In this document: one piece after another, positions 31,093-46,185 of the stretch
Layout of the letters: the number at the start of each line of letters is the position of its first letter
Numbering within the stretch: position 1 is the first letter of the stretch
DNA from: a phage
Length of the DNA: 64,000 nucleotides
Reading direction: 5' to 3' (one strand)
Sequence record: PZ496580.1
Position numbers and translations under genes: made by a program
The notes under the pieces: model-generated
The model's database searches: none
The model's input: only the letters and a program-made list of their open reading frames with translations
Told to the model about the DNA's origin: nothing

Positions 31093-31571
31093 GCTAAATC
31101 ATTGCAATATTTTAGTGCCTTAGTTTGAAATTCTGCGCTGTTAAGTTCTTCATAACGGTCATAATCACCGTTTAATGCTGCCTTTCTTGCTTCTTGCTCT
31201 ATCTGCATGTCAGACATGATAATACAGCGATCCCGTGCTTTCATCTTCTCAAGTTGTATAGACTCTTCTTTCTGCTTGCGCAATTCTTCTTGACGCTTCT
31301 TTTCTTCTTGTGCTTTCTCTTCCCGCGCTTCTTTGATTGCATCCTTGAACATCTGCGTTTGTGGTGCTAAACCAACTTTAACGCGATCCACGTCTCGACG
31401 TTCCATTTTAGAAATAAAGCATGATTCGATCTGATCATCGCTTGCATATGCTGCTTTACATTCACGAAGCAAGAAAACCGGATCTGATTTAGCATTCATC
31501 ATAGCTTCCATGTTAGCACAACCAGTAAGCATGAATGCAGCCGCAAGACCAATCAGTTTAATCATTTTCAT
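31086..31571 (-). CDS. Putative lipoprotein (161 aa)
   Basis: Signal peptide with lipobox LTGC; charged coiled-coil region. Confidence 0.55.
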   Translation of the reverse strand: MKMIKLIGLAAAFMLTGCANMEAMMNAKSDPVFLLRECKAAYASDDQIESCFISKMERRDVDRVKVGLAPQTQMFKDAIKEAREEKAQEEKKRQEELRKQKEESIQLEKMKARDRCIIMSDMQIEQEARKAALNGDYDRYEELNSAEFQTKALKYCNDLAK

Positions 31572-32392
31572 TTAGTCACCTCACCGAAAATTGTAAATTG
31601 TCTACGATTCTCATCGCCGAAGGATTCTACTACGTCGTTTACCTTGATGCAAGTCCCGCGCGGTAAAATTACTTCACATTCGCAAGGATTCCATGCAATA
31701 GACCCAACAACAAAACCTTTATGATCTTTTACGTCAATTACCCATGATACATTACAAGAATGTTGCATCTTTCCGGTCATTGATTCATATCGATTCTCAC
31801 AATAAAGGCTAGTGCTGTTTGAAAGCCATCCTCCAAAGATGATCGGTGTCATGCTGGTCGACACAAAGTTTTTAAAGGTAAACTCCTTATCTTCAATGAT
31901 ACGCTCTATTGTCTGAATGTCAAGATGTTGACCACGATAAAGAGTACCGTTTAACTTTTCGGTTTTATCCATGACGCAATCCATCAAATCAACAATTTCT
32001 GATATCTCGTCGGTCATGTCTTCTTCCCCTAAGAGAGCACCATTTACCCATTCGTATTGTTCAGACACATAATCACAGATTGCATTATATTCTGCTGGGG
32101 TTATGTTGTTATGTTTGTAATGTTTGAATACATTATCTCCAAAGTCTTCGGAGTGTACTTCATACATCACATTAATGATTTTCTTGACAAATCCATAATC
32201 TTGCGTCTCACGCTCAAGGAAGCGAATAACCTTCACGTAATCATCAAAGTTAATCTGATCGCTGATCATCTCAGTGATCATGTAACCATTAATCCCCTCA
32301 ATGCCATATGTTTCGATGTAATTATCCATACGTTCCATCATTGATTCGCGTGATTCTTCTGAAAGACGAAAATCCTGTAATTGTTTGAACAT
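31568..32392 (-). CDS. Alt-like ADP-ribosyltransferase paralog (274 aa)
   Basis: R-S-E triad: LYRG, FVSTS, CECEVILPRG. Confidence 0.7.
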   Translation of the reverse strand: MFKQLQDFRLSEESRESMMERMDNYIETYGIEGINGYMITEMISDQINFDDYVKVIRFLERETQDYGFVKKIINVMYEVHSEDFGDNVFKHYKHNNITPAEYNAICDYVSEQYEWVNGALLGEEDMTDEISEIVDLMDCVMDKTEKLNGTLYRGQHLDIQTIERIIEDKEFTFKNFVSTSMTPIIFGGWLSNSTSLYCENRYESMTGKMQHSCNVSWVIDVKDHKGFVVGSIAWNPCECEVILPRGTCIKVNDVVESFGDENRRQFTIFGEVTK

Positions 32393-32470: not shown

Positions 32471-34522
32471 TTACATTTTAAATTTATCTGGCATTGCGTC
32501 TACAGATACCAGATCAGCGATAAGCTGACGTAGAGTTGCCTTATCTGCTTTCTTACGTTCGGTTTTAGCTTCGGTAATGAAGCTGGAGAAAGAAAGGTCA
32601 GAAGCAGGTTTAACAACACCTTCACGGATGAATGCATCACCGTCCGCGATCATCTCGCCAGATTCTTGTAATGCTGCCAGTTCATTTTTGTTCATAATAT
32701 GTGCCTCAATGTAATAAGTTTCTTGTGAATCCGTTGATGCCGTAGCACGAGTTACCGTATCAAAGGATAACACAACACCGCGAGGAAGTAAAATCTCGCA
32801 TTCTTTGTAAGCAAATGCCTTGTTACCTACTGGCAATACAGGGATGTTTTCCGCGCCAGCGATAGAGAAAGCAACATTAGCGCCACCTTCACCGCGAGAT
32901 CCCGCCATAGAATCAACACCAGCAACGGCACTAGCCACGTTTGCATTCCACCCACCAAAAATATTAGGTGCAAGGGAAGTGCTCACATAGTTTTTAAAGT
33001 AAAACGCTTTTTGCTTACGTGCAGTTTCCCACATTTGAGACCGGAAGTCCATACCACGATACAGAATAGTACCAGGATCAAGTTTAACGCCATAGTTAGA
33101 GAAGGCATTATCCAGTGCATCACACATCTTGACCAATTCTTCTGGGTCTGCGATGCCATCAAACTCTTCCAGCTTACGATCGGTTAGGAAGTTGTTCATA
33201 TTGATGTATGCTGCATCGGCATATTCGCTCAACACAAAACCTTCCGCGCCAGGCAGGTCAAGATCAATATCTGCCATCATTTCACCCATGTTGCTAGCAA
33301 TTGCTTCAAACATACCGGAAGCAACATTACGCAGGGCATCGGTTTTAATCTGCGTGATGTGACTACGAAGCATTTCAGCTTTTACATCTGCTGGCATAGA
33401 CTGGTCTACTCGATCCATTGCTAAGGCAGTGATCTTGTTTTCGAATACTTCCTCGTTCATGATTTCTTTTAAGCGTTTGATTGATGCTGCGATAACTTCC
33501 GCAGACAACGGATCATATTGATCCTGAACTTTTACCAGTTCGCTTACTGCGTATTTTGCATCGGCCTCGCTTTCAAAAATAGTACGCATGAAACCATAGC
33601 GAGTGATAATATCACTTGTCCAATCATTCAGAGAACGCGCGGTTGAACGTTCTAAGGCTTGACGGTCAATCAGAGTATTAAACTGTTTCTTAGGTTCGGC
33701 TTCGGTGATATCTTCTTCCGGTTTAAGATTAATTTTTTCTGGATGATTCACATAGTCGCTGTTATAGGTCGCTTGAGTTTTCAGCATTTCTTCTTTAGTC
33801 AAACGAGATTTAGCCGCTACGCGTTGTTCTGCTTCCGCGTTTCGTTCTTCTTCTGACACAAGACTAGCCGCATACGCTTCATCTTTAGTCAGAGATTCGC
33901 CAGTAGCCTTAGATACCCAGCGATCACCTAAATCACTTTCTACTTTAGTGAACAAGGATTCATCAAGTTTAATCCCTTTAATCTTATCAATCGCCATCCC
34001 GCGACGTTTGACAACAACTAAAGCGATCTTTTTGCTGGTCATTACTTCCTGCTGGAATACTTCAAACTTCGGTGTACGACGCACCAAACGCTCTATAACG
34101 CGCTTAACCAGTTCGGTCTTACCTTTCATGCGGGATACGTTAAAACGGAACATAACAGCGTCTAATTGCGCTTTACGGGCTGTTTCCATAACCACATCAA
34201 AAGCACTTGCCATAACTGCAATCGGGTTATCGCCTAGACCATTTTTAAGCTGTACAATACGACCGCTTTTGTTCATTTCGCACAGTACAACATGTGCGGT
34301 CTTGTCACCCATACGAATGATTTTAGGTGTTTTGTTGGTGAAGTTACAAAGACGGACAATCACATCTTTATCGCGTGTCTGTACTGCAAAAAGCTGTTTA
34401 GGATTCTGCTTAGGCTTTAAGCACTGTACCGGGGCAATACTGCCAAAGTTTTCTTCCTCTTCTGTCAACAGCCATTTCTCGAAAGATTCAATCATTAGAT
34501 CGTCGATTTCTAAGTTAAACAT
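32471..34522 (-). CDS. alt: Alt ADP-ribosyltransferase
   Basis: 683 aa (T4 Alt 682); R-S-E triad ILYRG, YVSTS, ECEILLPRG. Confidence 0.85.
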   Translation of the reverse strand: MFNLEIDDLMIESFEKWLLTEEEENFGSIAPVQCLKPKQNPKQLFAVQTRDKDVIVRLCNFTNKTPKIIRMGDKTAHVVLCEMNKSGRIVQLKNGLGDNPIAVMASAFDVVMETARKAQLDAVMFRFNVSRMKGKTELVKRVIERLVRRTPKFEVFQQEVMTSKKIALVVVKRRGMAIDKIKGIKLDESLFTKVESDLGDRWVSKATGESLTKDEAYAASLVSEEERNAEAEQRVAAKSRLTKEEMLKTQATYNSDYVNHPEKINLKPEEDITEAEPKKQFNTLIDRQALERSTARSLNDWTSDIITRYGFMRTIFESEADAKYAVSELVKVQDQYDPLSAEVIAASIKRLKEIMNEEVFENKITALAMDRVDQSMPADVKAEMLRSHITQIKTDALRNVASGMFEAIASNMGEMMADIDLDLPGAEGFVLSEYADAAYINMNNFLTDRKLEEFDGIADPEELVKMCDALDNAFSNYGVKLDPGTILYRGMDFRSQMWETARKQKAFYFKNYVSTSLAPNIFGGWNANVASAVAGVDSMAGSRGEGGANVAFSIAGAENIPVLPVGNKAFAYKECEILLPRGVVLSFDTVTRATASTDSQETYYIEAHIMNKNELAALQESGEMIADGDAFIREGVVKPASDLSFSSFITEAKTERKKADKATLRQLIADLVSVDAMPDKFKM

Positions 34523-34801: not shown

Positions 34802-34837
34802 TTGATACTCCTTAGTAGTTCGTTTCGGTATGTGTGC

Positions 34838-34866
34838 ATTATAGGGGATCACCGATCCCCTGTCAA
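34838..34866 (-). promoter_or_regulatory. Early promoter cassette (PeSL-type): TTGACA-N17-TATAAT with palindromic spacer
   Basis: Minus strand reads TTGACAGGGGATCGGTGATCCCCTATAAT; spacer is a perfect inverted repeat. Confidence 0.7.
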
Positions 34867-34874
34867 CAACTTTT

Positions 34875-35393: not shown

Positions 35394-35569
35394 AATGTGC
35401 TTACCTTTTCAATATATGCGTCCGCATACTGGCGAATGCTCATTTCTTCTCGTACTGCTGCTACAAATTCTTTCATGGATTCAAACCATTTGTAGGTGTC
35501 GCGATACATGACCAACTCTTCCCAAGTAAGATCGCAAATCTCTTTACCGTGTAGTTGTGGTGTTATCAT
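35390..35569 (-). CDS. Small ORF (59 aa), translationally coupled
   Basis: ATGA overlap with the downstream DUF262 gene; below track length cutoff. Confidence 0.3.
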   Translation of the reverse strand: MITPQLHGKEICDLTWEELVMYRDTYKWFESMKEFVAAVREEMSIRQYADAYIEKVSTL

Positions 35570-35901
35570 AATATAGTTCTCCTGAATGGATCATCACGTA
35601 AATCAATATCTTTTAAGAACTCATCCCATGAATGGCGGATATTGTTCTTAATTCTCCAGATAAGCGCAGGGATTGAACGCTCACCCATCTGGAAGTAAGG
35701 ATCATATGATCCGTATGCCCAATATGCTACTACAATTCCACAATCAGCGCAATAGTATTCTATCTCGCTTGCTGGCGACCAAAGTCCATCAATATGATCG
35801 GTGATCTTGCTTTCAATGTTATGACTATGGCAATTAGGGCAACGTATGCAATGACCTTGTTTATCGTAATTTGACGTTAGAGAATACTTAAACAATCTCA
35901 T
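35566..35901 (-). CDS. Zinc-ribbon protein (111 aa)
   Basis: CIRCPNCH ... CADCG four-Cys arrangement; TAATG coupling to the upstream MTase-like gene. Confidence 0.5.
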   Translation of the reverse strand: MRLFKYSLTSNYDKQGHCIRCPNCHSHNIESKITDHIDGLWSPASEIEYYCADCGIVVAYWAYGSYDPYFQMGERSIPALIWRIKNNIRHSWDEFLKDIDLRDDPFRRTIL

Positions 35902-36617
35902 TATAGATCCTTATTGGCTTCAAATACTGCCTTTGCGAATCCTCGCGGGGTAAGTGACCTGATAGTCTTTGTTCTGGTTCCTTTCCCGCCTAGCTTAGAA
36001 TGCTGTTTGCTGTACCCTTTATTAATCGGCAACGGTTTCTTTTCTGGCATTATAAAGCCTTGTCCGGTCCACAAGCAAGTCTTTTTCGGGTACATATCAC
36101 GGGAGGCAATATACTCAGGAAACGTAGGATGTATATCATCTTCCGGCAAATAACCGCCATATTCCCACGGATGGAACATGTAATCAGGCTTACGCCACAT
36201 GCTAGAGATAACGCTTACAGGATTCTCTATCATGTAGGGAACTCCTAGCCATTCACCCAAATAAGCGGTTATTTTAGCTGCCCTTACATCATGAATTTGA
36301 ATTAATGGTCCTTGCTCTCGTTTCTTTCGTTCAAAGTGTGCAGCGCCACTAACAGCTAAATTGGTGCATGGTGGGAATGCAAATATAATATCCGGTTTCC
36401 CCCATTCAAGGTCCATTGCTCTTTCCAGCCAGTTCAAATCAATCCATGTGTTTACATAGGTAATGTTTGGATGTTCAAATCGGGTATTATATTTTTTGTA
36501 TGTACCGTGGTCGCCATCGTCAGCATTAAAGCAGATCACCTTATGACCTGCTTTAGCCCATTCTAGCCCCATTATCCCCGATCCGTCAAAGTTGCAGAAT
36601 ATTAATTTTTGTTTCAT
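35901..36617 (-). CDS. Minimal C5-cytosine methyltransferase-like protein (238 aa)
   Basis: Motif I-like FDGSGIMG, motif IV DIIFAFPPC, motif VI ENP, motif IX-like RSLTPRG; no room for a target-recognition domain. Confidence 0.55.
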   Translation of the reverse strand: MKQKLIFCNFDGSGIMGLEWAKAGHKVICFNADDGDHGTYKKYNTRFEHPNITYVNTWIDLNWLERAMDLEWGKPDIIFAFPPCTNLAVSGAAHFERKKREQGPLIQIHDVRAAKITAYLGEWLGVPYMIENPVSVISSMWRKPDYMFHPWEYGGYLPEDDIHPTFPEYIASRDMYPKKTCLWTGQGFIMPEKKPLPINKGYSKQHSKLGGKGTRTKTIRSLTPRGFAKAVFEANKDL

Positions 36618-36859
36618 ATACGCCCCTTTAACCCAACACAGATTTTAGAAGGTTCTTTACCGTGCCACATTAAGTAAAGTCCGTTAGTGCGGCCTTGTTT
36701 TGTATATGATTCTTTTCTAATCTTCTTATAGTGTCGTGCTTCCTCAACCGATTGTTTAGAATACCAATCATAAAGGAAGATGAACAAAGGCCAACCATTA
36801 GCGGCCTTAATGCAGTTATTAAGAAATTCCTTATTGCGTTTAATTAATTTTCTTTTCAC
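36614..36859 (-). CDS. Hypothetical basic protein (81 aa)
   Basis: Probable GTG start overlapping upstream stop; hydrophobic core segment. Confidence 0.35.
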   Translation of the reverse strand: MKRKLIKRNKEFLNNCIKAANGWPLFIFLYDWYSKQSVEEARHYKKIRKESYTKQGRTNGLYLMWHGKEPSKICVGLKGRI

Positions 36860-37107
36860 GCTGCCCCCGTTGGTTTGATAGTAACAGAATCTAAAAGACC
36901 TTTGTTAGCCAGTTCGCGGCAAGTTTTCAGATCCGCAACTTCCCAGCCAGCCGCAATCAGGTTATCAATCAGGCTGTTAGCAACTTCTTCGCTCATGAAA
37001 GAGCACTGTTTGCCGATGGTGTAGCGTACACGCTGTAATTTCAGTTTACGGAAGCCTTTAACGTTCAGGTCTTTAGCGATTTTCTTTGCGGTTTCGATGT
37101 TAGCCAT
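36856..37107 (-). CDS. Hypothetical protein (83 aa, MANIE start)
   Basis: First gene behind promoter cassette 37148-37176. Confidence 0.5.
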   Translation of the reverse strand: MANIETAKKIAKDLNVKGFRKLKLQRVRYTIGKQCSFMSEEVANSLIDNLIAAGWEVADLKTCRELANKGLLDSVTIKPTGAA

Positions 37108-37147
37108 TGTTTGATTCTCCTAAGTAGTATCTCGTCTTGATGTGTGT

Positions 37148-37176
37148 ATTATAGGGGATGGTGTCTCCCCTGTCAA
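37148..37176 (-). promoter_or_regulatory. Early promoter cassette (PeSL-type)
   Basis: TTGACA-GGGGAGACACCATCCCC-TATAAT on minus strand. Confidence 0.7.
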
Positions 37177-37190
37177 CACTTTTTATAAAA

Positions 37191-37358
37191 TTATTTGTTA
37201 ATTTCCGGTGCGTTGCTCGGATAGTAACCTTCTTTAACTCCGAGGTATTTCGCAACCATCCCTACAATCTTCTGTGCTACTACAATGTCAAATTTCAGAT
37301 AATCTTCGCCGTGGGTTTCAATGATATATGCTTCACATGCTGCTTTAGTCTCGAACAT
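37191..37358 (-). CDS. Small protein (55 aa), paralog of 40945-41112
   Basis: MFETKAACEAYIIETHGEDYLKFDIVVAQKIVGMVAKYLGVKEGYYPSNAPEINK; about 85 percent identical to the copy at 40945-41112. Confidence 0.45.
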   Translation of the reverse strand: MFETKAACEAYIIETHGEDYLKFDIVVAQKIVGMVAKYLGVKEGYYPSNAPEINK

Positions 37359-37391
37359 TTTGATTCTCCTATTTCGTTTCGGTATGTGTGT

Positions 37392-37421
37392 ATTATAGGG
37401 GATCTCCCGATCCCCGTCAAC
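37392..37421 (-). promoter_or_regulatory. Early promoter cassette (PeSL-type)
   Basis: GTTGAC-GGGGATCGGGAGATCCCC-TATAAT. Confidence 0.65.
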
Positions 37422-37434
37422 AACTTTTTTAAAA

Positions 37435-37716
37435 TTATTCGTGATTAGTTTCGATATTGTACATTTTGCACCAGTTCAGCCAATCGCCCAGATCTTGATA
37501 GTTGATGCTTTTATCTGCTGCCATAGTTTTTGTCTTGATACCCATATGTGCGTTATGAGTAAGCATTTTTACAGTGAACTCGATTTTATCGCCTTTAGCT
37601 TTAACATCAACCAGTTTGGTCCACTGGCTACCAGCGCCGCGAATGTTCATACCAACGATGTTTCCGATGTATGCTTCTTTGTTTTTCAGGATTTCGGTTG
37701 CTTTGATGAATTTCAT
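37435..37716 (-). CDS. Hypothetical protein (93 aa)
   Basis: ORF behind promoter cassette 37750-37778. Confidence 0.5.
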   Translation of the reverse strand: MKFIKATEILKNKEAYIGNIVGMNIRGAGSQWTKLVDVKAKGDKIEFTVKMLTHNAHMGIKTKTMAADKSINYQDLGDWLNWCKMYNIETNHE

Positions 37717-37749
37717 TTTTGATTCTCCAGTTCGTTTCGGTATGTGTGT

Positions 37750-37778
37750 ATTATGCTATGTTCTTACTTTGGTGTCAA
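37750..37778 (-). promoter_or_regulatory. Early promoter cassette (variant, -10 CATAAT)
   Basis: TTGACA-N17-CATAAT plus conserved UTR ACCGAAACGAACTGGAGAATCAAAA. Confidence 0.6.
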
Positions 37779-37786
37779 CAACTTTT

Positions 37787-38056
37787 TTAGATATTTTCAG
37801 AAATAAATTTTAAAACTTGACGTAAATGTTTCTCATCTTTGATAGTCGCCGGAAGTTCTTCTTTTACTTCCTGTGCAAGATAGATATTTCCGTTCCAAGT
37901 GAAAGATCCGTCTTCGTTTACGCGATAGCTGAACATCCACTCGCAATCATTTTCGATTTCATATACACACAGAAGGGTGTAATCATTAAAGCTGTTGATT
38001 TCAAGGTCGAGGCCGTGACGTTTTGCAAAGTTGGTAGTGGTTTTAGTCAATGCCAT
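37787..38056 (-). CDS. Hypothetical protein (89 aa)
   Basis: ORF behind promoter cassette 38097-38125. Confidence 0.5.
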   Translation of the reverse strand: MALTKTTTNFAKRHGLDLEINSFNDYTLLCVYEIENDCEWMFSYRVNEDGSFTWNGNIYLAQEVKEELPATIKDEKHLRQVLKFISENI

Positions 38057-38096
38057 TGTTTGATTCTCCTAAGTGGTATCTCGTTTCGATAGGTGT

Positions 38097-38125
38097 ATTA
38101 TGATATAGGCGTGATCTGGTGTCAA
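38097..38125 (-). promoter_or_regulatory. Early promoter cassette (variant)
   Basis: TTGACA-N17-CATAAT. Confidence 0.6.
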
Positions 38126-38145
38126 CAACTTTTTTAAAATTTAGG

Positions 38146-38172
38146 CAATAAAAAGCCGACACTAAGGTCGGC
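38146..38172 (-). terminator. Terminator GCCGACCTTAGTGTCGGC plus TTTTTATT
   Basis: Hairpin plus T-run; duplicated at 38653-38679. Confidence 0.6.
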
Positions 38173-38177
38173 ACATT

Positions 38178-38432
38178 TTAAAAATTCTTGCTATATATGC
38201 AAGCCTCATAATCTAGAGGATGACCGCCAATCCTACCAGGCTTAATATTCCAACCGCATCGATATTTGCTGACCATGCTAACCGTTTCGGTTCTTAGAGC
38301 ATTTCTTTGCAAATCATACCCCCTAAATTCTTGTCTATAAGGACAGTCCGCTTTGCAAGTTGGCGGTTCTACGTCATTTAGCGGGTCAGAAGCAGTTGGC
38401 TTTATTATCAATTCTTTGTTTGCAATAATCAT
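38178..38432 (-). CDS. Hypothetical protein (about 84 aa), overlapping the preceding ORF
   Basis: Start placed at internal ATG (MIIANKEL); overlaps the 3' end of ORF 38386-38565 in another frame; start uncertain. Confidence 0.3.
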   Translation of the reverse strand: MIIANKELIIKPTASDPLNDVEPPTCKADCPYRQEFRGYDLQRNALRTETVSMVSKYRCGWNIKPGRIGGHPLDYEACIYSKNF

Positions 38433-38565
38433 AAGCACATCCCATTGAAGGCAATTTAACATCTTCGCAATAAGTGTTGAATCCGTCAAATACAATCACT
38501 TCGTATTTGACTCCATCGGCGATAGCTTTTACTTTATACCATCCATGCTTGTATAAAATCTTCAT
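38386..38565 (-). CDS. Hypothetical Cys-containing protein (59 aa)
   Basis: ATG at 38565 after promoter cassette 38599-38627. Confidence 0.4.
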   Translation of the reverse strand: MKILYKHGWYKVKAIADGVKYEVIVFDGFNTYCEDVKLPSMGCAYDYCKQRIDNKANCF

Positions 38566-38598
38566 CTTTATTTCCCTCAATCTCGTTTCGATGGGTGT

Positions 38599-38627
38599 AT
38601 TATGCTATAGGCGTGATCTGGTGTCAA
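38599..38627 (-). promoter_or_regulatory. Early promoter cassette (variant)
   Basis: TTGACA-N17-CATAAT. Confidence 0.6.
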
Positions 38628-38652
38628 TGCCTTTTTTTTTAAAAATTTTATG

Positions 38653-38679
38653 CAATAAAAAGCCGACACTAAGGTCGGC
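38653..38679 (-). terminator. Terminator GCCGACCTTAGTGTCGGC plus T-run
   Basis: Copy of 38146-38172. Confidence 0.6.
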
Positions 38680-38687
38680 TAATAAAA

Positions 38688-38997
38688 TCATTTAGACAAA
38701 TAATCATTCTGTGCAATCCGGTCGGCGTATGCTGGTGTTATGTCAATCGCCAGCACTTTAACGCGTGCTTTCTTGCGACCTGAGTTTTCTCGTAACCAGT
38801 GCTCATGACCGTGAACATTTTTATACTTTGATGCTGTTTCGAAAGTACGGATCGGACCTGGGTAATCAGCGTAAAGGATCTCTAGGTCTTCGGTGATGTA
38901 AAAATATACATCATAATTACTGTTCTCTAGTTTAAGCAGAGAGTTGCGTAATTGTGGTAAATTCTCGCGGGTAAATTCAACTACAAGATTTTTCATA
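38688..38997 (-). CDS. Small protein, HxHW family member A (102 aa)
   Basis: C-terminal GHEHW...VKVLAIDI signature shared with four or five other ORFs; start at MKNLVV. Confidence 0.5.
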
Positions 38998-39019
38998 GTG
39001 ATATCCTCATTCAGATAGA

Positions 39020-39040
39020 TTAAAAGGGGCTTAACGCCCC
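39020..39040 (-). terminator. Terminator GGGGCGTTAAGCCCC plus T-run
   Basis: Same hairpin as 34562-34587. Confidence 0.5.
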
Positions 39041-39045
39041 ATATA

Positions 39046-39333
39046 TTAAAACAGTCCTTCCTGTACACCGTAGTAGAGTTCATCGCTGATAATTTCATTA
39101 ATGCGACGGTGTGCATATTCCTGATTTGCGAAGTTGTCAGCAAGTTCTACTTTAGTTTCGCCGTCATGAGTCCATTTAGTGATAACTTTACCATCTGCAA
39201 ATTTGAAGTTGAACTCTTTAGCTACTGCATCGCGTACCAGACGTGCAAACTTGTTGTTACGGATTGCATTATCGGTCTCGTGTGCAGCGTGAGCAAATTT
39301 GTTAACTTTCAGCGTGATAGTGATGTATGCCAT
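39046..39333 (-). CDS. Hypothetical protein (95 aa)
   Basis: ORF behind promoter cassette 39374-39402. Confidence 0.5.
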   Translation of the reverse strand: MAYITITLKVNKFAHAAHETDNAIRNNKFARLVRDAVAKEFNFKFADGKVITKWTHDGETKVELADNFANQEYAHRRINEIISDELYYGVQEGLF

Positions 39334-39373
39334 TGTTTGATTCTCCTAAGTGGTATCTCGTTTCGATGGGTGT

Positions 39374-39402
39374 ATTATGCTATACACCCGATCTTATGTC
39401 AA
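39374..39402 (-). promoter_or_regulatory. Early promoter cassette (variant)
   Basis: TTGACA-N17-CATAAT. Confidence 0.6.
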
Positions 39403-39407
39403 CACTT

Positions 39408-39686
39408 TTATAAAATAATTTTTTGATATTTTTCTATGATGTTTGAGTAGGTCACATCAACCGCTAGCACCGTTGCTTCGAATCCACCGTCTAGCCAATG
39501 GCTATGGTCATGATCGTGAAAGAAACCAAGACCAGTACGAAGACCTTCTTTATATTCGGCGCGTACATTCAGTTTGTCGTCGATAAACAGATAAAACCAT
39601 GAATTTTTACTAGGATTGATGATACAACCTTTCAGATTAGGGAGAATATCACGACTAAGAATAAACTTATCACCTACTTTGAACAT
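39408..39686 (-). CDS. Small protein, HxHW family member B (92 aa)
   Basis: FYLFIDDK ... HDHDHSHW ... TVLAVDV; SD GAGGA. Confidence 0.5.
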   Translation of the reverse strand: MFKVGDKFILSRDILPNLKGCIINPSKNSWFYLFIDDKLNVRAEYKEGLRTGLGFFHDHDHSHWLDGGFEATVLAVDVTYSNIIEKYQKIIL

Positions 39687-39709
39687 AATATTGTCCTCAC
39701 TTATAAAGT

Positions 39710-40009
39710 TTAACTGTTGTTTTTCTCGTAATGCTGCATACGTGCTTGATCTGCTTCCGCTGGTGATAGATTCCATGCGATCACTACAACTTCTGACGCA
39801 TCATGATCATTATCACTTACCCAATGATTATGATTCATACAATTGTTTGCTATCGCGTGAGCAAATGATCTCATTACAGGAGACGTATAATCATAGTAAC
39901 GGATTTTCAGATTTTCATCAACGTACAAATAGATCGTATAAGGTTTATATTCAGTAACCAGTAACAGACAGTTACGCAATTCTGGGAAAATCTTTTTAGT
40001 TAATTTCAT
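39710..40009 (-). CDS. Small protein, HxHW family member C (99 aa)
   Basis: YLYVDENL ... NHNHW ... VVVIAWNL. Confidence 0.5.
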   Translation of the reverse strand: MKLTKKIFPELRNCLLLVTEYKPYTIYLYVDENLKIRYYDYTSPVMRSFAHAIANNCMNHNHWVSDNDHDASEVVVIAWNLSPAEADQARMQHYEKNNS

Positions 40010-40211
40010 ATTCTAGTTCTCCGTAATACACGGTAATCCATTTTTCTTCATACTTTGTATCTTTCCAGCACACAATCCCGTTTACTGCGCAATCTTTGGA
40101 ATTGACGAATGATTCATATTGTTCTGCATCTTCCATCATTGCATGAGCGGTCTTTTCATCGAATATATCGCAGATCGCTTTATATGCTCGATAATCTTTA
40201 AATTTGCTCAT
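39996..40211 (-). CDS. Small protein, MSKFKDY family copy 1 (71 aa)
   Basis: MSKFKDYRAYKAICDIFDEKTAHAMMEDAEQ; tandem paralog of 40214-40423. Confidence 0.45.
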   Translation of the reverse strand: MSKFKDYRAYKAICDIFDEKTAHAMMEDAEQYESFVNSKDCAVNGIVCWKDTKYEEKWITVYYGELEYEIN

Positions 40212-40213
40212 AA

Positions 40214-40423
40214 TTAACACCATTCAAGAGTTTTTGAAAACACGTCTATCCATTGTTGAGTGTAGCATGTTTCTTTCCATGATACAATACGAGTAGAATA
40301 ATGGTTTTTGTTTCCAGAAAAGGACGGGCATTTTGATGCATCTTCCATCATCTTTTCGGCGAACTCTGGTTCGTATACCCGCAGGATCTGTTGATATGCT
40401 TTATAATCTTTAAATTTGCTCAT
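40214..40423 (-). CDS. Small protein, MSKFKDY family copy 2 (69 aa)
   Basis: MSKFKDYKAYQQILRVYEPEFAEKMMEDASK. Confidence 0.45.
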   Translation of the reverse strand: MSKFKDYKAYQQILRVYEPEFAEKMMEDASKCPSFSGNKNHYSTRIVSWKETCYTQQWIDVFSKTLEWC

Positions 40424-40688
40424 AATTGTTAACTACCTTATCAGCTTCTTTTATTGTTTTTACATCAACTGCGATAATCCGTAAAGGTTCGTCGAAGGTC
40501 CACCAATGATCGTGAATATCAGCTTGTGATTTATCACCAAAGGAATCACGAATATCATTTTTACATTTATAGCTAATATGGCCTTCATAGTCAACATAAA
40601 GGTAATTATCGAAAATCGGCGTTTTTAAGATCATACCGAAAAATCTTTCTTTGTGTGTCTTATCCAGCGTTGCAGTAATTCGCATCAT
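40410..40688 (-). CDS. Small protein, HxHW family member D (92 aa)
   Basis: YLYVDYEG ... DIHDHWW ... RIIAVDV. Confidence 0.5.
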   Translation of the reverse strand: MMRITATLDKTHKERFFGMILKTPIFDNYLYVDYEGHISYKCKNDIRDSFGDKSQADIHDHWWTFDEPLRIIAVDVKTIKEADKVVNNYEQI

Positions 40689-40700
40689 AATATATTCCTC

Positions 40701-40880
40701 TTAGAAAGGGATGGTCATTTCTTGAGCTTGTACATTCTCATTAGGATTAAACTTCATCCAGCCGATATTGTCTACCAGCATATGCACATTTTTATCATAT
40801 CCTACGTGGGTAGTCAATACTGTATGTGCTTTACCTTCAATTATGAGTTCCATGTACTTCTGAACTTCGATAGCTTTCAT
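40701..40880 (-). CDS. Small ORF (59 aa)
   Basis: MKAIEVQKYMELIIEGKAH...; ATG after promoter cassette 40913-40941; below track cutoff. Confidence 0.35.
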   Translation of the reverse strand: MKAIEVQKYMELIIEGKAHTVLTTHVGYDKNVHMLVDNIGWMKFNPNENVQAQEMTIPF

Positions 40881-40912
40881 TTTGATTCTCCGTTTGTTGT
40901 CTTGATGGGAGT

Positions 40913-40941
40913 ATCTTACTACTCCCTTTAATCATTGTCAA
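40913..40941 (-). promoter_or_regulatory. Early promoter cassette (variant, stem-loop overlapping -10 TAAGAT)
   Basis: TTGACA-N17-TAAGAT with GGGAGTAGTAAGATACTCCC palindrome. Confidence 0.5.
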
Positions 40942-40944
40942 CTA

Positions 40945-41112
40945 TTATTTGTTAATTTCTGGTGCGTTGCTCGGATAGTAACCTTCTTTAACACCCAGAT
41001 ATTTTGCAACCATTCCGGTGATCTTCTGTGCTACTACGATATCGAATTTCAGGTAGTCTTCACCGTGGTTTGCTACAATGTATGCTTCGCATTCTGCTTT
41101 AGTCTGGAACAT
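40945..41112 (-). CDS. Small protein (55 aa), paralog of 37191-37358
   Basis: MFQTKAECEAYIVANHGEDYLKFDIVVAQKITGMVAKYLGVKEGYYPSNAPEINK. Confidence 0.45.
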   Translation of the reverse strand: MFQTKAECEAYIVANHGEDYLKFDIVVAQKITGMVAKYLGVKEGYYPSNAPEINK

Positions 41113-41147
41113 TTTTTGATTCTCCTATATCTCGTTGGTATGTGTGC

Positions 41148-41176
41148 ATTATAGGGGATCACCGATCCCCTGTCAA
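41148..41176 (-). promoter_or_regulatory. Early promoter cassette (PeSL-type)
   Basis: Core is a reverse-complement copy of 34838-34866 (spacer GGGGATCGGTGATCCCC). Confidence 0.7.
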
Positions 41177-41181
41177 CAACT

Positions 41182-41475
41182 TTATAATGCTTTATATGCG
41201 TATTTCATAAATTTGTCTGCCACTTCATTGGCATGTTCAGCTTCTACGCCTGATTCGAGAACAATAGCTAGGTCGGTTTCGTCATTCCCGCCGTACCAAT
41301 GATTTGATGTTCGATTTTTTTCAATTGGAAATTGGTCACTTTTATCTGTGCGACAAAATACATCTAAATGCTCGTCGATGTAAAAGATCCAATCTTCATA
41401 AAGAATAACGGTATTAGCCAGATTTTTATTGCCTTCAACGAAAGGTTCGGCTACAAACAAATTAGTATGTTCCAT
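41182..41475 (-). CDS. Small protein, divergent HxHW-family member F (97 aa)
   Basis: ILYEDWIFYIDEHLD ... NHWYGG ... LAIVLE; start at MEHTNL with SD GAGGAA. Confidence 0.4.
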   Translation of the reverse strand: MEHTNLFVAEPFVEGNKNLANTVILYEDWIFYIDEHLDVFCRTDKSDQFPIEKNRTSNHWYGGNDETDLAIVLESGVEAEHANEVADKFMKYAYKAL

Positions 41476-41491
41476 AACAATTTCCTCAAAA

Positions 41492-41683
41492 TTATACAAC
41501 TTCGTAAACTTCCCAATGTTCAGCGCCAGCACGCTTAACGAAAAGGTTTTCTTTGATGTTATTCATAAACGTATGAATGGATTTAATGCGGTTGGAAGGT
41601 TTCCAGTCTTCGTTAGCATTGCGGCGATACATTATAACATTACCAGATCGCTTATATTCAGCAACCATTTTAAGACCACACAT
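41492..41683 (-). CDS. Hypothetical basic protein (63 aa)
   Basis: ORF with SD GAGGAT. Confidence 0.4.
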   Translation of the reverse strand: MCGLKMVAEYKRSGNVIMYRRNANEDWKPSNRIKSIHTFMNNIKENLFVKRAGAEHWEVYEVV

Positions 41684-41740
41684 AATATTATCCTCAATTT
41701 GTGGGAGAGTATTACCCCTCCCGATGTTTGTTATATTACA

Positions 41741-42061
41741 TTACACAAAATGGCGTGTCAATGCTTCTTTTGCTGTTCCGCTAAGACTTTCGATCTCGCC
41801 TGGCATAACATCAACTGCCAGAACTTCTACAACATCCTCGGACCCTAACCAGTGAGTATGACCTTTGTAGAACTTGATGACCAGACTACCTTCCTCGTCC
41901 CATTTAACGCTATCGCTAGCCCACCACACATCACCGTCGATAAAGTTGATGTAAAGCACACTACGCCACATTGAATTAATTACTTTCAATACTGCGCCTT
42001 TCATCTCTTCCACGGTATGGTCTTCCATTTTGAAGACCTCACCTACCTGAACTTTTGCCAT
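41741..42061 (-). CDS. Small protein, HxHW family member E (106 aa)
   Basis: VLYINFIDGD ... KGHTHW ... VEVLAVDV. Confidence 0.5.
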   Translation of the reverse strand: MAKVQVGEVFKMEDHTVEEMKGAVLKVINSMWRSVLYINFIDGDVWWASDSVKWDEEGSLVIKFYKGHTHWLGSEDVVEVLAVDVMPGEIESLSGTAKEALTRHFV

Positions 42062-42081
42062 TTAGTTTTACCTCTCGTTAA

Positions 42082-42261
42082 TTACATTACGATCACGCCA
42101 GCCGTTGAAAGTTGATGTTTCAACTGAGCATTTTCTGCTACCGTCAAATCAATGATTTCTTGTGACGCTGCAATCATATAGCCATTGGTGATATTGTTTT
42201 GCATCAGTTCAATGGTTTCTTCGTTGTAGCGGATTTTAGCGATGATTTCGTTGAAGTTCAT
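42082..42261 (-). CDS. Hypothetical protein (59 aa)
   Basis: ATG behind promoter cassette 42296-42324. Confidence 0.4.
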   Translation of the reverse strand: MNFNEIIAKIRYNEETIELMQNNITNGYMIAASQEIIDLTVAENAQLKHQLSTAGVIVM

Positions 42262-42295
42262 AATTGATTCTCCTAGTTCGTTTCGGTATGTGTGT

Positions 42296-42324
42296 AGTAT
42301 AGGGGATCGGTGATCCCCTGTCAA
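42296..42324 (-). promoter_or_regulatory. Early promoter cassette (PeSL-type)
   Basis: TTGACA-GGGGATCACCGATCCCC-TATACT. Confidence 0.65.
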
Positions 42325-42337
42325 CAACTTTTTTGAA

Positions 42338-42814
42338 TTATTTTTCTTGATGCTCGCGCTCGTACTTTTCGAAATAAAATTCTACTGGCTGGTCGTGGAT
42401 TGAAAGCAAGCCAAAGCGTTTAGCCGCTCGTAATCCCATATTGCGCTGAATGTACTTCTGGAAGTTCTCGCGTATACACTTACGCCAGTATTCTAAGCCC
42501 ATACAGCTTTTATAAAGATTGCATTGCACACATGCCGGATTCATGTTATCAAGTATATCATGCTCCGGTTTATGCATTCCTACAACCTTATACTTCCACG
42601 ATCCATCATCGTTACGGGAAATGCGCCCATTTTCATCATAGACTACTTTTGAGCGTCGTAATACTGGTTTGATATGATCCGCGTGCCAGCGTTCTCCTAG
42701 TACCTCTCCGCAATAGGCACAACGTCCACCGTATTTCATTTTCAGGATCTGGCGTTGCTCTTTCTTTGACAATTTTTTAGGTTTAGGGGCTTTCGCCCCT
42801 TCATTATCACACAT
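42338..42814 (-). CDS. HNH endonuclease
   Basis: CAYCG...HADHIKP...NMNPACVQCN HNH motif; overlaps the ligase 3' end by 8 nt. Confidence 0.7.
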   Translation of the reverse strand: MCDNEGAKAPKPKKLSKKEQRQILKMKYGGRCAYCGEVLGERWHADHIKPVLRRSKVVYDENGRISRNDDGSWKYKVVGMHKPEHDILDNMNPACVQCNLYKSCMGLEYWRKCIRENFQKYIQRNMGLRAAKRFGLLSIHDQPVEFYFEKYEREHQEK

Positions 42815-44309
42815 CGAATACCTCTTTTACTGTATTTGCAGTGGTCTTGTCGTAGCGAATACGTTTGATGATCGGGAGAAATAAAGAGAACTCCGGTTCA
42901 TCTTCTTTACGTGATTTGCTGCGGATATACCCGTTGCATGTCATCTCAATGACTTTTCCGATCAGGTTATGACGGTCAGCCCATAACATTTCTCGGTCAA
43001 GTTCATTTCGACGATCGAACGGAATTACACGTTCAATACCATCATCACCTTTTTCGGTTGTGGTGTCGGTCAATCCCGATCCGGTGTTAGTCATCATTCG
43101 TCCGCACGCACTACGGACAGTAAAACCGCCTACCTTATTAGGATCTTTACTATGCGGATATACATCAACAATTTCCGCGTCGAAGTCAATCACTTCTTTA
43201 AATTTAACCTGATCTTTACTGCGACGATCTTCAAATACACCATGTAAATTTTTAAGGATAATACCTTCTAAGCCCATGTTTACATAGCGATGATATACTT
43301 CGCGAGCTTCATCTATATTGTTAACTACAGTGTTTTCGATTATCTGAACACGAGGATCGTTAAGTTCTTCAACAATCTGTTTTAGTTCTTCGAATCGATC
43401 TTTATATTGCTTCGTTGCTTTCTCGTTTCCGTAATACACATCACGGTCGATAACATCCCAGACAGTGTAAACAATACATTGGGCTTCTTCTTTTGGAATA
43501 GTTCCTTTCAGTGATTTGTTGAGGATGCCATTTCCGGTCTGACGATCTGCAACAACGGATTCTTTCACTGCTTCCGCTACTGGCGTTAATGGCATTTCCT
43601 CTTCTTCAAATATCCATGACAGAGTACCGTCATAAACGCTCTCAACGAAGTTCTGCGCTGGTGTTTGCGAAAGGGTAGGCATATATACCAATTCGCCATC
43701 TAGAACAATTCCACGTCCTCGTAGACGCTCTAAAACCGCAAACAAATCATCAAGCCCCTGATAGGTATTACCTGAACGGGTATAGATTGCTAATGTTTCC
43801 CCGTCAATATCAGCCATACCACGAGCGCCATCGCTTTTAAGTTGTGCATATGCAGGATATTTGATATTAGCAATGGCCTTATCAGAATATGACGATGCAA
43901 GGTGGCACGGTTGCTGGGGGATCAGTTTCTTCCATACCTTGTTTGCAGTGGTAGCGGAACAACCGCATTCCAGGTCACGATTCAGGACCATCATTGCAAC
44001 TTTAGCATCATCTTCTGACAAGCAAGTCAGAGTATCGGTAACTAGCTGTAATGCTGCATTGCCAGTTACTTGACGTGTGGCAAGTTTATTTTTAAAGACT
44101 TGTAATGCACCGGATAAAGACAATACAGACGAATATCGCGATGGTTTATCGTATTTCTTTACGCCAAACGTAACCTGTTTGCAATATGCCAGATAAAAGC
44201 ATTCTTTCAGAGTGTCATTGCTTGCTGATTCTTTCAGGATCTTTTCTTTCAGCGATGTTTTGTCTGTTGCTGCAAGCTGATTAATGATATTAAGAATTGA
44301 CATTTTCAC
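42807..44309 (-). CDS. 30: ATP-dependent DNA ligase (gp30)
   Basis: 500 aa; adenylation motif AQLKSDGAR and overall similarity to T4 ligase. Confidence 0.9.
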   Translation of the reverse strand: MKMSILNIINQLAATDKTSLKEKILKESASNDTLKECFYLAYCKQVTFGVKKYDKPSRYSSVLSLSGALQVFKNKLATRQVTGNAALQLVTDTLTCLSEDDAKVAMMVLNRDLECGCSATTANKVWKKLIPQQPCHLASSYSDKAIANIKYPAYAQLKSDGARGMADIDGETLAIYTRSGNTYQGLDDLFAVLERLRGRGIVLDGELVYMPTLSQTPAQNFVESVYDGTLSWIFEEEEMPLTPVAEAVKESVVADRQTGNGILNKSLKGTIPKEEAQCIVYTVWDVIDRDVYYGNEKATKQYKDRFEELKQIVEELNDPRVQIIENTVVNNIDEAREVYHRYVNMGLEGIILKNLHGVFEDRRSKDQVKFKEVIDFDAEIVDVYPHSKDPNKVGGFTVRSACGRMMTNTGSGLTDTTTEKGDDGIERVIPFDRRNELDREMLWADRHNLIGKVIEMTCNGYIRSKSRKEDEPEFSLFLPIIKRIRYDKTTANTVKEVFDV

Positions 44310-44769
44310 CTCGTTTTGTTAAACGTTCACGAATATCATTGAGGATACTACAAAATTCTGATTCGGTCAATATGGTCTTTAACGGATCAGTTCCACCTAT
44401 GCTATGACGTAATTTCTTATTTCCGGTAGCGAGTAACGCTTTACAAAATTCCGGGTTATTCCTTGCCATCGTAACAAATGCCAGATGTACCAGTCTGTAA
44501 TAATGCTCACTCATTCGATGAATCGGGCGACCCTGAAAATATAACATGTGATTCTCTATCTTTTCAGTCCTTCCGGTTCTTTTTGCTTTGCCACCGTACA
44601 TCAAAAAGATTTCTCTTTGTCTCTGAGGGTTCTTAAATCTTAGCCCCTGTAAAAATCCTTCTGTGCTGTTAATATCGCAACCAAATAGACGGAATGGTCT
44701 TTTATTGAAATTACTCAATTCACCAGATGGATAAGGTCCACCCGCATAGATATCAATTTCAGAAGTCAT
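44290..44769 (-). CDS. NADAR / YbiA-like domain protein
   Basis: GELSNF ... EFCKALLATGNKKLRH resemble E. coli YbiA (GDFSNF ... ELRALLLAT) landmarks. Confidence 0.55.
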   Translation of the reverse strand: MTSEIDIYAGGPYPSGELSNFNKRPFRLFGCDINSTEGFLQGLRFKNPQRQREIFLMYGGKAKRTGRTEKIENHMLYFQGRPIHRMSEHYYRLVHLAFVTMARNNPEFCKALLATGNKKLRHSIGGTDPLKTILTESEFCSILNDIRERLTKRGENVNS

Positions 44770-45006
44770 TGAAACTAATCTCGCTAATCAGAGAGAACGG
44801 ATCATAATCGTCATGAGGAATATCGATAGTAATCGAATGAGGATTTACCCATACACCAAACTGGTCTTCTTCGGTGAATACTTCGGTATGGATTTCGTGG
44901 ATGTTTACATTCATAGTTTTCATAATAAAAATTCCTTAATAATCAATAACTTACAAAATCATATAGCCAAAATATAGGCGGGATTATTACCCGCCGTTTA
45001 AAATCA

Positions 45007-45371: not shown

Positions 45372-45686
45372 TTATTTATAAATTTCGACGATCTGCGCTG
45401 GCGTCAATCCGTCTACATGAATCAGGCTATCAAGACCAAAACTACGAAAACCTTCAACTGCAATTTCATATACTGGCAAAGATGTTTCTGATTCTTTACG
45501 CGGTTTTTCAACATTCGGAACTAACCATTTTTCGTATGTTTCGAAAGGCATCAGTGCCGGATCTCGCGTGGCGATCATCTCGCGGACAGTACCATCTTTC
45601 TTAGTAAACTGCAAAGAGTGAGTACCGACCGAAAACATTTTCTTTAGTGCTTCACGAAGTGCGATATTATCAATTTGTTCAGTCAT
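45372..45686 (-). CDS. Hypothetical protein (104 aa)
   Basis: ORF between cd and 31; start at MTEQID. Confidence 0.45.
   Translation of the reverse strand: MTEQIDNIALREALKKMFSVGTHSLQFTKKDGTVREMIATRDPALMPFETYEKWLVPNVEKPRKESETSLPVYEIAVEGFRSFGLDSLIHVDGLTPAQIVEIYK
45373..45380 (-). promoter_or_regulatory. Possible late promoter (TATAAATA on minus strand) upstream of gene 31
   Basis: Plus-strand TATTTATA about 43 nt upstream of the gp31 ATG. Confidence 0.3.
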
Positions 45687-46185
45687 TATCAATACCCTTC
45701 AAATCAGTCAATAATGCTTTTGGAATACGCGTGATCGTAATATCTGCATTATTCAGAATATCAGCCCAATCACGCCCACCATTTCGATCATATGTGTCGC
45801 AATAGTATAGATGTTTAATTCCACTGTTTGCAATTGCTTTAGCGCAATCTGGACACGGTGAAGCAGTACACCACATACTAGCGCCTTCAATCGATACACC
45901 GCTACGGGCAGCAAACAAAATAGCATTTAATTCAGCATGGATCTCGTTTTTCTGTGACCATGCACTATGTTCTGGTCGTTTTTCTGGGATCATTTTGCCG
46001 TCATCATCCAGCCAACCGCTTTTATGTGCATGACAGCTACAATTTACTTGCCCTGCTGGAGTGCCGTTAAATCCAGTAGAAATGATTCGCCCGTCTTTTT
46101 CAATTAGTGCGCCTACCTTCCACGAAACGCATTTAGAGTTCTTTGCGATTAGATAGGCGATCTGCATGTAAGTTTGTGACAACAT
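45679..46185 (-). CDS. cd: dCMP deaminase
   Basis: HAELNAI and CTASPCPDCAKAI zinc-binding motifs. Confidence 0.85.
   Translation of the reverse strand: MLSQTYMQIAYLIAKNSKCVSWKVGALIEKDGRIISTGFNGTPAGQVNCSCHAHKSGWLDDDGKMIPEKRPEHSAWSQKNEIHAELNAILFAARSGVSIEGASMWCTASPCPDCAKAIANSGIKHLYYCDTYDRNGGRDWADILNNADITITRIPKALLTDLKGIDND

What the first reader, a model, noticed from the sequence alone, without database searches (positions are those of the whole stretch)
44290..44769. NADAR/YbiA-like domain gene overlapping the DNA ligase start, in a genome carrying two Alt ADP-ribosyltransferases
The 159 aa protein carries YbiA/NADAR-like landmarks (GELSNF, EFCKALLATG). NADAR enzymes are reported to remove ADP-ribose from guanine bases modified by DarT-type toxins. 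Its stop overlaps the ligase start by about 20 nt, so the two are probably co-translated. The pairing suggests a DNA-repair or anti-toxin role, and the phage also writes ADP-ribose marks via Alt.
Basis: partly seen in the sequence, partly recalled or inferred. Interest (0 to 1): 0.6.

Follow-up and report, generated by a model that had tools for sequence, protein, structure and literature searches.

The report
Phage NADAR (AdfN) anti-DarT gene

Summary

- The overlap with ligase is 14 nt (ATG start with a GAGG ribosome-binding site), not about 20.
- Such overlaps occur at about a third of gene junctions here.
- Ligase lies within 4 kb in only 12 of 82 related loci.
- In T4, genes 30.2 and 30.1 separate 30.3 from ligase.

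The ligase pairing and the Alt genes therefore reflect conserved T4-type gene order, not evidence of function. Verdict: a correct call on a known family. This allele is untested, and interest is low.

The parts
44290..44769 (-). Gene 30.3 / adfN-type CDS, 159 aa: a phage-clade NADAR domain consisting of the core fold only
44659..44661 (-). Codon GAA for E37, the catalytic glutamate (equivalent to T4 E36, P. nicotianae NADAR E43, E. coli C7 DarG1 E88, YbiA E48)
   Evidence: Invariant in 80/80 family members and 82/82 loci. Aligned to T4 E36 and to YbiA E48. Its role is described in PMC11543638 and PMC11825919.
44638..44640 (-). Codon AGA for R44, at the position of the ADP-ribose phosphate-binding lysine (T4 K43, Pn K50, C7 K95). 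This is a natural Lys-to-Arg variant.
   Evidence: The E-x6-K spacing is kept. K in 77/80 family members and R in 3/80. R in 7/82 viral loci. The C7 K95R mutant is active in vitro but does not rescue DarT1 toxicity.
44404..44406 (-). Codon CAT for H122, the histidine after the last strand that marks phage (gp30.3-type) NADARs. It replaces Glu of the YbiA family and Asp of DarG1.
   Evidence: Invariant in 80/80 members and present in 81/82 loci. It lies just after strand 119-121 of the model. The clade feature is stated in PMC11125620 and PMC11543638.
44314..44364 (-). C-terminal helix (residues 136-152). The equivalent helix is missing in the inactive RB69 allele.
   Evidence: Helix 136-152 in the AF2 model. 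The T4 truncation data are in PMC11825919.
44290..44303 (-). 14-nt overlap (ATGTCAATTCTTAA) between the end of 30.3 and the start of gene 30, read in different frames
   Evidence: Sequence. RB49 annotation. Conserved in the 68%-identical relative L084.
44309..44312 (-). GAGG ribosome-binding site of gene 30, lying inside the 30.3 coding sequence 5 nt upstream of the ATG
   Evidence: Sequence. Annotated as RBS in AJ550428. Purine-rich equivalent (GGGG) in L084.
42807..44303 (-). Gene 30, ATP-dependent DNA ligase (498 aa from the ATG)
   Evidence: PF01068 E=4e-22. RB49 gene 30 annotation. 41% identical to T4 ligase.
44759..44923 (-). Gene 31.-1 (54 aa, function unknown). Its stop overlaps the 30.3 start by 11 nt.
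   Evidence: ORF. phrog_15277 E=6e-42. RB49 annotation. Not similar to T4 30.4.
44977..44995 (-). Terminator-like GC hairpin plus T-run between gene 31 and 31.-1. It is the likely upstream boundary of the 31.-1/30.3/30 translation-coupled block.
   Evidence: Pattern scan. Sequence. 'terminator' is annotated in related records. This is a consensus match only.

Best explanation
The gene encodes the Krischvirus orthologue of T4 gp30.3 (AdfN), a minimal, core-only member of the NADAR superfamily.

Proposed mechanism: on infection of a host carrying DarTG1, or another guanine-directed DNA ADP-ribosyltransferase, the host toxin attaches ADP-ribose to the N2 amino group of guanines in phage DNA and blocks replication. 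The phage enzyme binds the ADP-ribose through its conserved pocket. In that pocket E37 and H122 flank the distal ribose and R44 holds the pyrophosphate. The enzyme hydrolyses the ribose-guanine bond, releasing ADP-ribose and restoring an undamaged base, so replication proceeds.

The gene is expressed from a tightly packed, translationally overlapping block: 31.-1, 30.3, 30, then an HNH gene.

What is shown here: the real gene, family membership, the fold, the active-site residues, purifying selection and the synteny with T4.

What is shown by others, for the T4 protein only: hydrolysis of guanine-ADP-ribose on DNA, and its necessity and sufficiency against DarTG1 during T-even infection.

What is inferred for this allele: the same substrate and the same phenotype.
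For: - PF08010 Phage_30_3 at 132 bits against a cut-off of 36.
- 44 of 80 family members also hit Pfam NADAR at E<=0.01, best 1e-6.
- The AF2 model has pLDDT 93.9 and pTM 0.89.
- 38% identity over the full length to T4 gp30.3, E=6e-30.
- The gene sits in the same place in the conserved 31...30.3...30 order.
- E37 and H122 are invariant, the C-terminal helix is present, and a basic residue is kept at position 44.
- dN/dS is 0.02-0.13.
- The gene is intact in about 60 Krischvirus records.
- Experimental work on T4 AdfN: PMC11825919, PMC11125620, the HIDEN-SEQ preprint 10.1101/2025.11.20.689424 and PMC12945103.
Against: - No experiment exists on any Krischvirus allele or on Krischvirus sensitivity to DarTG1. 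Searches of the held library found none.
- Identity to the tested T4 protein is only 38%.
- The lysine mutated in T4 (K43A gave partial loss) is Arg here. In E. coli C7 DarG1 the K95R change kept in vitro hydrolysis but abolished rescue from DarT1 in cells, so efficiency or specificity may differ.
- T4 AdfN needs an unidentified T-even factor for full activity. Whether this phage supplies it is unknown.
Confidence: 0.78

Rival explanations
1. It is an active NADAR hydrolase whose physiological substrate is not DarT1-modified phage DNA. Candidates are guanine-ADP-ribose on RNA, marks left by other toxins (YarT-like or pierisin/ScARP-like ARTs), or a small-molecule N-glycoside as for YbiA in riboflavin metabolism.
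For: All NADAR families hydrolyse G-ADPr on model DNA and RNA in vitro but differ strongly in vivo. The Lys-to-Arg change at position 44 could shift specificity. The authors of the T4 work themselves suggest that other ADP-ribosylating defences may be targets.
Against: The phage-clade His is shared with T4 AdfN, whose in vivo target is DarT1-modified phage DNA. T4 NADAR did not remove cytidine-ADPr. YbiA-family members have Glu, not His, at the marker position.
Confidence: 0.12
2. It is a functional partner of DNA ligase in a repair pathway. The overlap would enforce co-expression because de-ADP-ribosylation and nick sealing act in sequence.
For: The 14-nt overlap with an internal RBS is conserved down to 68% protein identity. 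A downstream same-strand ligase occurs in several T4-like lineages, and one unrelated contig (L079) has direct adjacency. T4 AdfN needs an unknown phage factor.
Against: NADAR hydrolysis regenerates intact guanine without strand breakage (established chemistry), so no ligation step is required. Seventy of 82 related loci have no T4-type ligase within 4 kb. T4 has 30.2 and 30.1 between the two genes. Overlaps occur at 21 of 60 junctions in this genome region.
Confidence: 0.05
3. It is an eraser for the phage's own ADP-ribose marks, that is, a counterpart of Alt and the Alt-like ART.
For: Two ART-domain genes lie 8-12 kb downstream on the same strand.
Against: Alt modifies proteins (established knowledge of T4 Alt). 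NADARs tested so far act on base-linked ADP-ribose, not on protein or thymidine marks. The same gene order exists in T4, where the AdfN phenotype is fully explained by DarTG1.
Confidence: 0.03
4. It is a weakened allele, or one that acts without catalysis. The R44 substitution would impair function in cells, leaving the protein as a binder or decoy, or as a gene in decay.
For: C7 DarG1 K95R fails in vivo. Another phage NADAR is said to act without catalysis.
Against: There is strong purifying selection (dN/dS 0.02-0.13). E37 and H122 are retained. Arg recurs in several T4-like lineages at 40-49% identity, so it is a stable state rather than a recent lesion. K95R remains catalytically active in vitro.
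Confidence: 0.04

Closest known systems
T4 gp30.3 = AdfN (anti-DarT factor NADAR), Pfam PF08010 Phage_30_3, PHROG 652
   Same: Same Pfam and PHROG family. 38% identity over the full length. Same core-only NADAR fold. The same catalytic Glu and clade-specific His. The same C-terminal helix. The same position in the 31...30.3...30 gene order of T4-like phages.
   Different: Arg instead of the Lys mutated in T4 (K43). Seven extra C-terminal residues, partly encoded by the overlap with ligase. It directly overlaps gene 30, because 30.2 and 30.1 are absent. The host phage has a different genus and is outside Tevenvirinae in current taxonomy (Straboviridae; Krischvirus). The allele has not been tested experimentally.
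DarG1, the NADAR antitoxin of the DarTG1 toxin-antitoxin system (E. coli C7, Geobacter lovleyi; PDB 8bat)
   Different: There is no N-terminal extension. His replaces the catalytic Asp. It is an orphan, with no adjacent DarT. The T4 orthologue cannot replace DarG1 in uninfected cells.
E. coli YbiA (PDB 2b3w) and P. nicotianae NADAR (PDB 8bau), the YbiA family and stand-alone NADARs (Pfam PF08719)
   Different: The Pfam NADAR score is below threshold for this protein (13.4 against 35.1 bits). The marker Glu is His. YbiA has a riboflavin-intermediate N-glycosidase role, and those families also remove cytidine-ADPr, which the T4 phage NADAR does not.
AdfN(Bas32) and AdfN(Bas60), NADARs of T5-like and Vequintavirinae phages
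   Same: They are phage-encoded orphan NADARs that counter DarTG1.
   Different: They belong to other NADAR clades, were acquired independently, and work without a phage cofactor. The window protein belongs to the T4-type clade.

Membership tests
NADAR superfamily (YbiA fold) | YbiA/NADAR three-dimensional fold | tested here: met
NADAR superfamily (YbiA fold) | Sequence match to the Pfam NADAR profile PF08719 above the gathering score | tested here: not met
   13.4 bits, E=0.09, against a cut-off of 35.1. However, 44 of 80 members of its own family hit PF08719 at E<=0.01, and a family profile weakly finds YbiA (E=0.12). The protein is captured by the sister model PF08010 instead.
NADAR superfamily (YbiA fold) | Conserved catalytic Glu at the start of the first core helix (Pn E43 / C7 E88) | tested here: met
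   E37, invariant in 80/80 and 82/82 sequences. It aligns to T4 E36 and YbiA E48.
NADAR superfamily (YbiA fold) | Conserved Lys seven residues after the Glu, coordinating the ADP-ribose phosphates (Pn K50 / C7 K95) | tested here: not met
   The residue is Arg (R44). A basic character and the spacing are kept. Arg occurs in 3/80 and 7/82 relatives. K95R in C7 DarG1 is active in vitro.
Phage NADAR clade (gp30.3 / AdfN-T4 type, PF08010) | PF08010 match above the gathering score | tested here: met
   132.1 bits against 36, covering profile positions 2-138 of 138. phrog_652 E=4e-45.
Phage NADAR clade (gp30.3 / AdfN-T4 type, PF08010) | His in place of the Glu/Asp at the last strand | tested here: met
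   H122 in LRHSIGG, directly after strand 119-121. The clade feature is stated.
Phage NADAR clade (gp30.3 / AdfN-T4 type, PF08010) | Core domain only, with no N-terminal extension, and an intact C-terminal helix needed for full activity | tested here: met
   159 aa. Helix 136-152 is present. Full-length alignment to the 152-aa T4 protein. The requirement is shown.
Phage NADAR clade (gp30.3 / AdfN-T4 type, PF08010) | Orthologous position upstream of DNA ligase gene 30 and downstream of gene 31 in T4-like genomes | tested here: met
   Window order pseT-cd-31.1-31-31.-1-30.3-30 against T4 31-rIII-30.9...30.3-30.2-30.1-30-alt.
Phage NADAR clade (gp30.3 / AdfN-T4 type, PF08010) | Hydrolysis of guanine-linked ADP-ribose on DNA | not testable with these tools
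   Shown only for the T4 protein.
Phage NADAR clade (gp30.3 / AdfN-T4 type, PF08010) | Confers resistance to DarTG1 during infection | not testable with these tools
   Shown for T4 and T2 alleles. No paper in the held library tests a Krischvirus.

The most novel reading that the evidence does not exclude
The Arg44 sub-lineage of phage NADARs comprises Krischvirus plus a few T4-like phages at 40-49% identity, all with ligase nearby. It may represent a functionally shifted AdfN. One possibility is a different target spectrum, meaning another guanine-directed or RNA-directed ADP-ribosyltransferase defence. Another is a different dependence on the unidentified phage cofactor, with the hard-wired translational coupling to gene 30 reflecting a real stoichiometric or physical link to the replication/repair machinery that localises the enzyme on phage DNA.
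Probability: 0.07. Interest if true: 0.5.

Novelty: already known. Interest (0 to 1): 0.15.

Why it matters
It matters little as a discovery. The gp30.3 family was placed in the NADAR superfamily bioinformatically years ago, and its T4 member was shown in 2024-2025 to be an anti-DarTG1 DNA ADP-ribosylglycohydrolase.

The useful outcomes are practical:
- The gene in RB49-like phages, still labelled 'hypothetical protein' in nearly all records, can be annotated as an AdfN-type NADAR.
- A naturally occurring Lys-to-Arg variant of a residue used in mutagenesis studies is identified. It offers a ready-made test of how that position affects in-cell activity.
- The ligase overlap and the Alt neighbours are shown to be inherited gene order, not functional clues.

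Tried and rejected
- Direct sequence search of the protein against PDB chains gave only spurious hits (DltA E=7e-4 and others). A family profile found YbiA only weakly (E=0.12). Fold comparison was needed.
- NCBIfam gave only a far sub-threshold hit to a NADAR anti-phage model (13 against 240 bits).
- I tested whether the upstream 54-aa ORF (31.-1) corresponds to T4 30.4, as a conserved partner or cofactor candidate. There was no similarity.
- I tested whether linkage to ligase is general. It is not: 12 of 82 loci. One caveat is that only T4-type ATP-dependent ligases at E<=1e-5 within 4 kb were counted, so NAD-dependent or very divergent ligases would be missed.
- I looked for published tests of RB49 or Krischvirus against DarTG and found none. 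The supplementary tables of the AdfN paper are not held.
- The promoter scan was not informative: 21 sites found against 16.5 expected.
The spatial clustering of E37, R44 and H122 therefore rests on alignment and secondary-structure position, not on measured distances.

Full report
**What is there**

The surrounding 2.6 kb is 97-98% identical at the DNA level to about 60 RB49-like phages of genus Krischvirus, family Straboviridae. In RB49 the ORF is annotated as gene 30.3, 'conserved hypothetical protein', and is 99% identical.

The local gene order on the minus strand is pseT, cd.2, cd, 31.1, 31, a terminator-like hairpin, 31.-1, 30.3, 30 (DNA ligase), then an HNH endonuclease gene.

**It is a real gene under selection**

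- It matches Pfam PF08010 (Phage_30_3) at 132 bits against a cut-off of 36, E=1.5e-38, over the whole profile.
- It matches phrog_652 at E=4e-45.
- tblastn finds it in 1510 phage records, nearly all at full length.
- A profile search finds more than 4,000 relatives in metagenomes.
- Against RB49 and two IMG/VR Krischvirus contigs, dN/dS is 0.02-0.04. Against a 68%-identical metagenomic relative it is 0.13.

**Family and fold**

The Pfam NADAR model itself is sub-threshold for this protein (13.4 bits, E=0.09). Even so, 44 of 80 members of its family hit that model at E<=0.01, the best at 1e-6. A profile of the family aligns its SNF...E-x6-K block to E. coli YbiA.

**What the family is known to do**

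- T4 gp30.3 was placed among 'phage NADARs' in earlier bioinformatic and structural work.
- It was shown to hydrolyse guanine-linked ADP-ribose on DNA in vitro (PMC11125620).
- It was then shown genetically to be the factor that makes T-even phages resistant to the DarTG1 toxin-antitoxin defence, and was renamed AdfN (PMC11825919).
- A transposon study confirmed that 30.3/adfN is dispensable on K-12 but required in the presence of DarTG1.
- The T4 enzyme does not act on thymidine-ADPr (DarT2) or on cytidine-ADPr.

The window protein is 38% identical to T4 AdfN over its full length, E=6e-30, and lies at the orthologous place in the genome.

**Active site**

- The catalytic Glu (T4 E36, Pn E43, C7 E88) is E37. 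It is invariant in 80/80 family members and 82/82 viral loci.
- The residue that distinguishes NADAR families is Glu in YbiA, Asp in DarG1 and His in phage NADARs. Here it is H122, invariant in the family and placed just after the last strand of the model.
- The C-terminal helix, whose loss inactivates the RB69 allele, is present at residues 136-152.
- The one departure is the phosphate-binding Lys (T4 K43, Pn K50, C7 K95). With the E-x6 spacing kept, it is Arg (R44).

Arg at this position is a minority state. It occurs in 3 of 80 aligned relatives. It also occurs in 7 of 82 viral loci: three are Krischvirus sequences (RB49 and two IMG/VR contigs) and four are T4-like contigs of 160-168 kb at 40-49% identity. 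In E. coli C7 DarG1 the engineered K95R retains hydrolysis in vitro but no longer rescues cells from DarT1. In T4, K43A gives partial loss. The substitution is conservative, recurs across diverged lineages and sits in a gene under strong purifying selection. I therefore read it as a tolerated or compensated variant rather than a defect, but it is the one point where this allele could behave differently.

**The overlap with ligase**

The minus-strand sequence reads ACGAGGTGAAAATGTCAATTCTTAA. A GAGG at 44309-44312 lies 5 nt upstream of an ATG at 44303, and the 30.3 stop is at 44290-44292. Both RB49 records annotate this ATG and the RBS. In a 68%-identical relative the ATG, a purine-rich RBS and the 14-nt overlap ATGTCAATnCTTAA are conserved, while the in-frame GTG is not. 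The overlap is therefore 14 nt, in a different reading frame. Translational coupling is plausible but not shown.

The overlap is not special to this pair:
- 31.-1 overlaps 30.3 by 11 nt, and gene 30 overlaps the HNH gene by 8 nt.
- In the 28.6-kb RB49 stretch, 21 of 60 adjacent CDS junctions overlap.
- In T4, 30.3, 30.2, 30.1 and 30 form a chain of 1-4-nt overlaps, with two genes between 30.3 and the ligase.

Across 82 loci encoding family members, only 12 have a T4-type ligase within 4 kb. Chemically, NADAR hydrolysis restores an intact guanine and leaves nothing to ligate. The adjacency is best explained as T4-type gene order from which 30.2 and 30.1 are missing.

**The Alt genes**

Two ART-domain genes are present: alt (683 aa) at 32471..34522 and an Alt C-terminal-like gene (274 aa) at 31568..32392. 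T4 also has alt just downstream of gene 30. Alt is a protein-modifying enzyme packaged in the head (RB49 annotation; established T4 biology). No NADAR tested acts on anything other than base-linked ADP-ribose. I find no support for a writer-eraser relation.

**Mechanism proposed**

The host toxin DarT1, or a similar guanine-directed ART, is activated on infection and ADP-ribosylates guanine N2 in phage DNA, which blocks replication. The phage enzyme binds the ADP-ribose, with R44 on the pyrophosphate and E37 and H122 around the distal ribose. It cleaves the ribose-base bond, which frees the DNA. Gene, family, fold, residues, selection and synteny are shown here. Activity and phenotype are shown for T4 by others. 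Transfer to this allele is inference, which I put at roughly 0.78.

Open points:
- The effect of R44.
- Whether the unidentified phage factor that T4 AdfN needs for full activity exists in Krischvirus.
- Whether RB49-like phages, which fall outside Tevenvirinae in current taxonomy, are actually resistant to DarTG1. No paper in the held library addresses this.

**Verdict**

The supporting arguments from the ligase overlap and the Alt genes are not evidence. The family and its function are already published. This is an untested orthologue with one noteworthy active-site variant. Interest is low (0.15).

Noticed in passing
window 44638-44640 (-), residue R44 of gp30.3: The phosphate-binding lysine of NADARs (T4 K43, C7 DarG1 K95) is naturally Arg in Krischvirus and in four other T4-like contigs (L005, L006, L046, L055; 40-49% identity). 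All seven Arg-bearing loci are among the 12 of 82 that have ligase within 4 kb. This is probably shared ancestry, but it was not resolved.
   Followed up: partly
window 34875-35393 (-): A 172-aa ORF (RB49ORF187c, 'hypothetical') matches the N-terminal DUF262 domain of GmrSD restriction endonucleases (PF03235, E=4e-20). It has no recognisable C-terminal nuclease domain, which is an odd thing for a phage to carry.
   Followed up: no
window 42338-42814 (-): An HNH endonuclease gene (158 aa, PF01844 E=2e-5) starts 8 nt before the ligase stop. T4 has a different small ORF at this place and then alt, so this looks like an inserted, possibly mobile, endonuclease.
   Followed up: no
window 44977-44995 (-): A GC-rich hairpin (GGCGGG-7nt-CCCGCC) followed by a T-run lies directly after gene 31. 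It is annotated as 'terminator' in some related records. It implies that 31.-1/30.3/30 need read-through or their own promoter, and none was identified.
   Followed up: partly
window 34600-42300 (-): About 27 small ORFs without any family match lie between alt and the HNH/ligase genes (RB49ORF185c-211c). This is a typical hyperplastic region of T4-like genomes and a likely reservoir of other anti-defence genes.
   Followed up: no
L084 4101-4409 (relative of window 45372-45692, gene 31.1): The gene 31.1 homologue in the 68%-identical relative carries a WYL_2 domain hit (PF10902). WYL domains are ligand-sensing regulators often linked to defence systems.
   Followed up: no
L079 4001-5796: An unrelated 29-kb viral contig has a gp30.3-type NADAR (42% identity) followed after 3 nt by a divergent ATP-dependent ligase (31% identity). 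This may be a second, independent NADAR-ligase adjacency.
   Followed up: no
window 44596-44598 (-), residue 58: The window protein has Tyr58 where RB49 and the other Krischvirus sequences examined have His. It is the only amino-acid difference from RB49.
   Followed up: no
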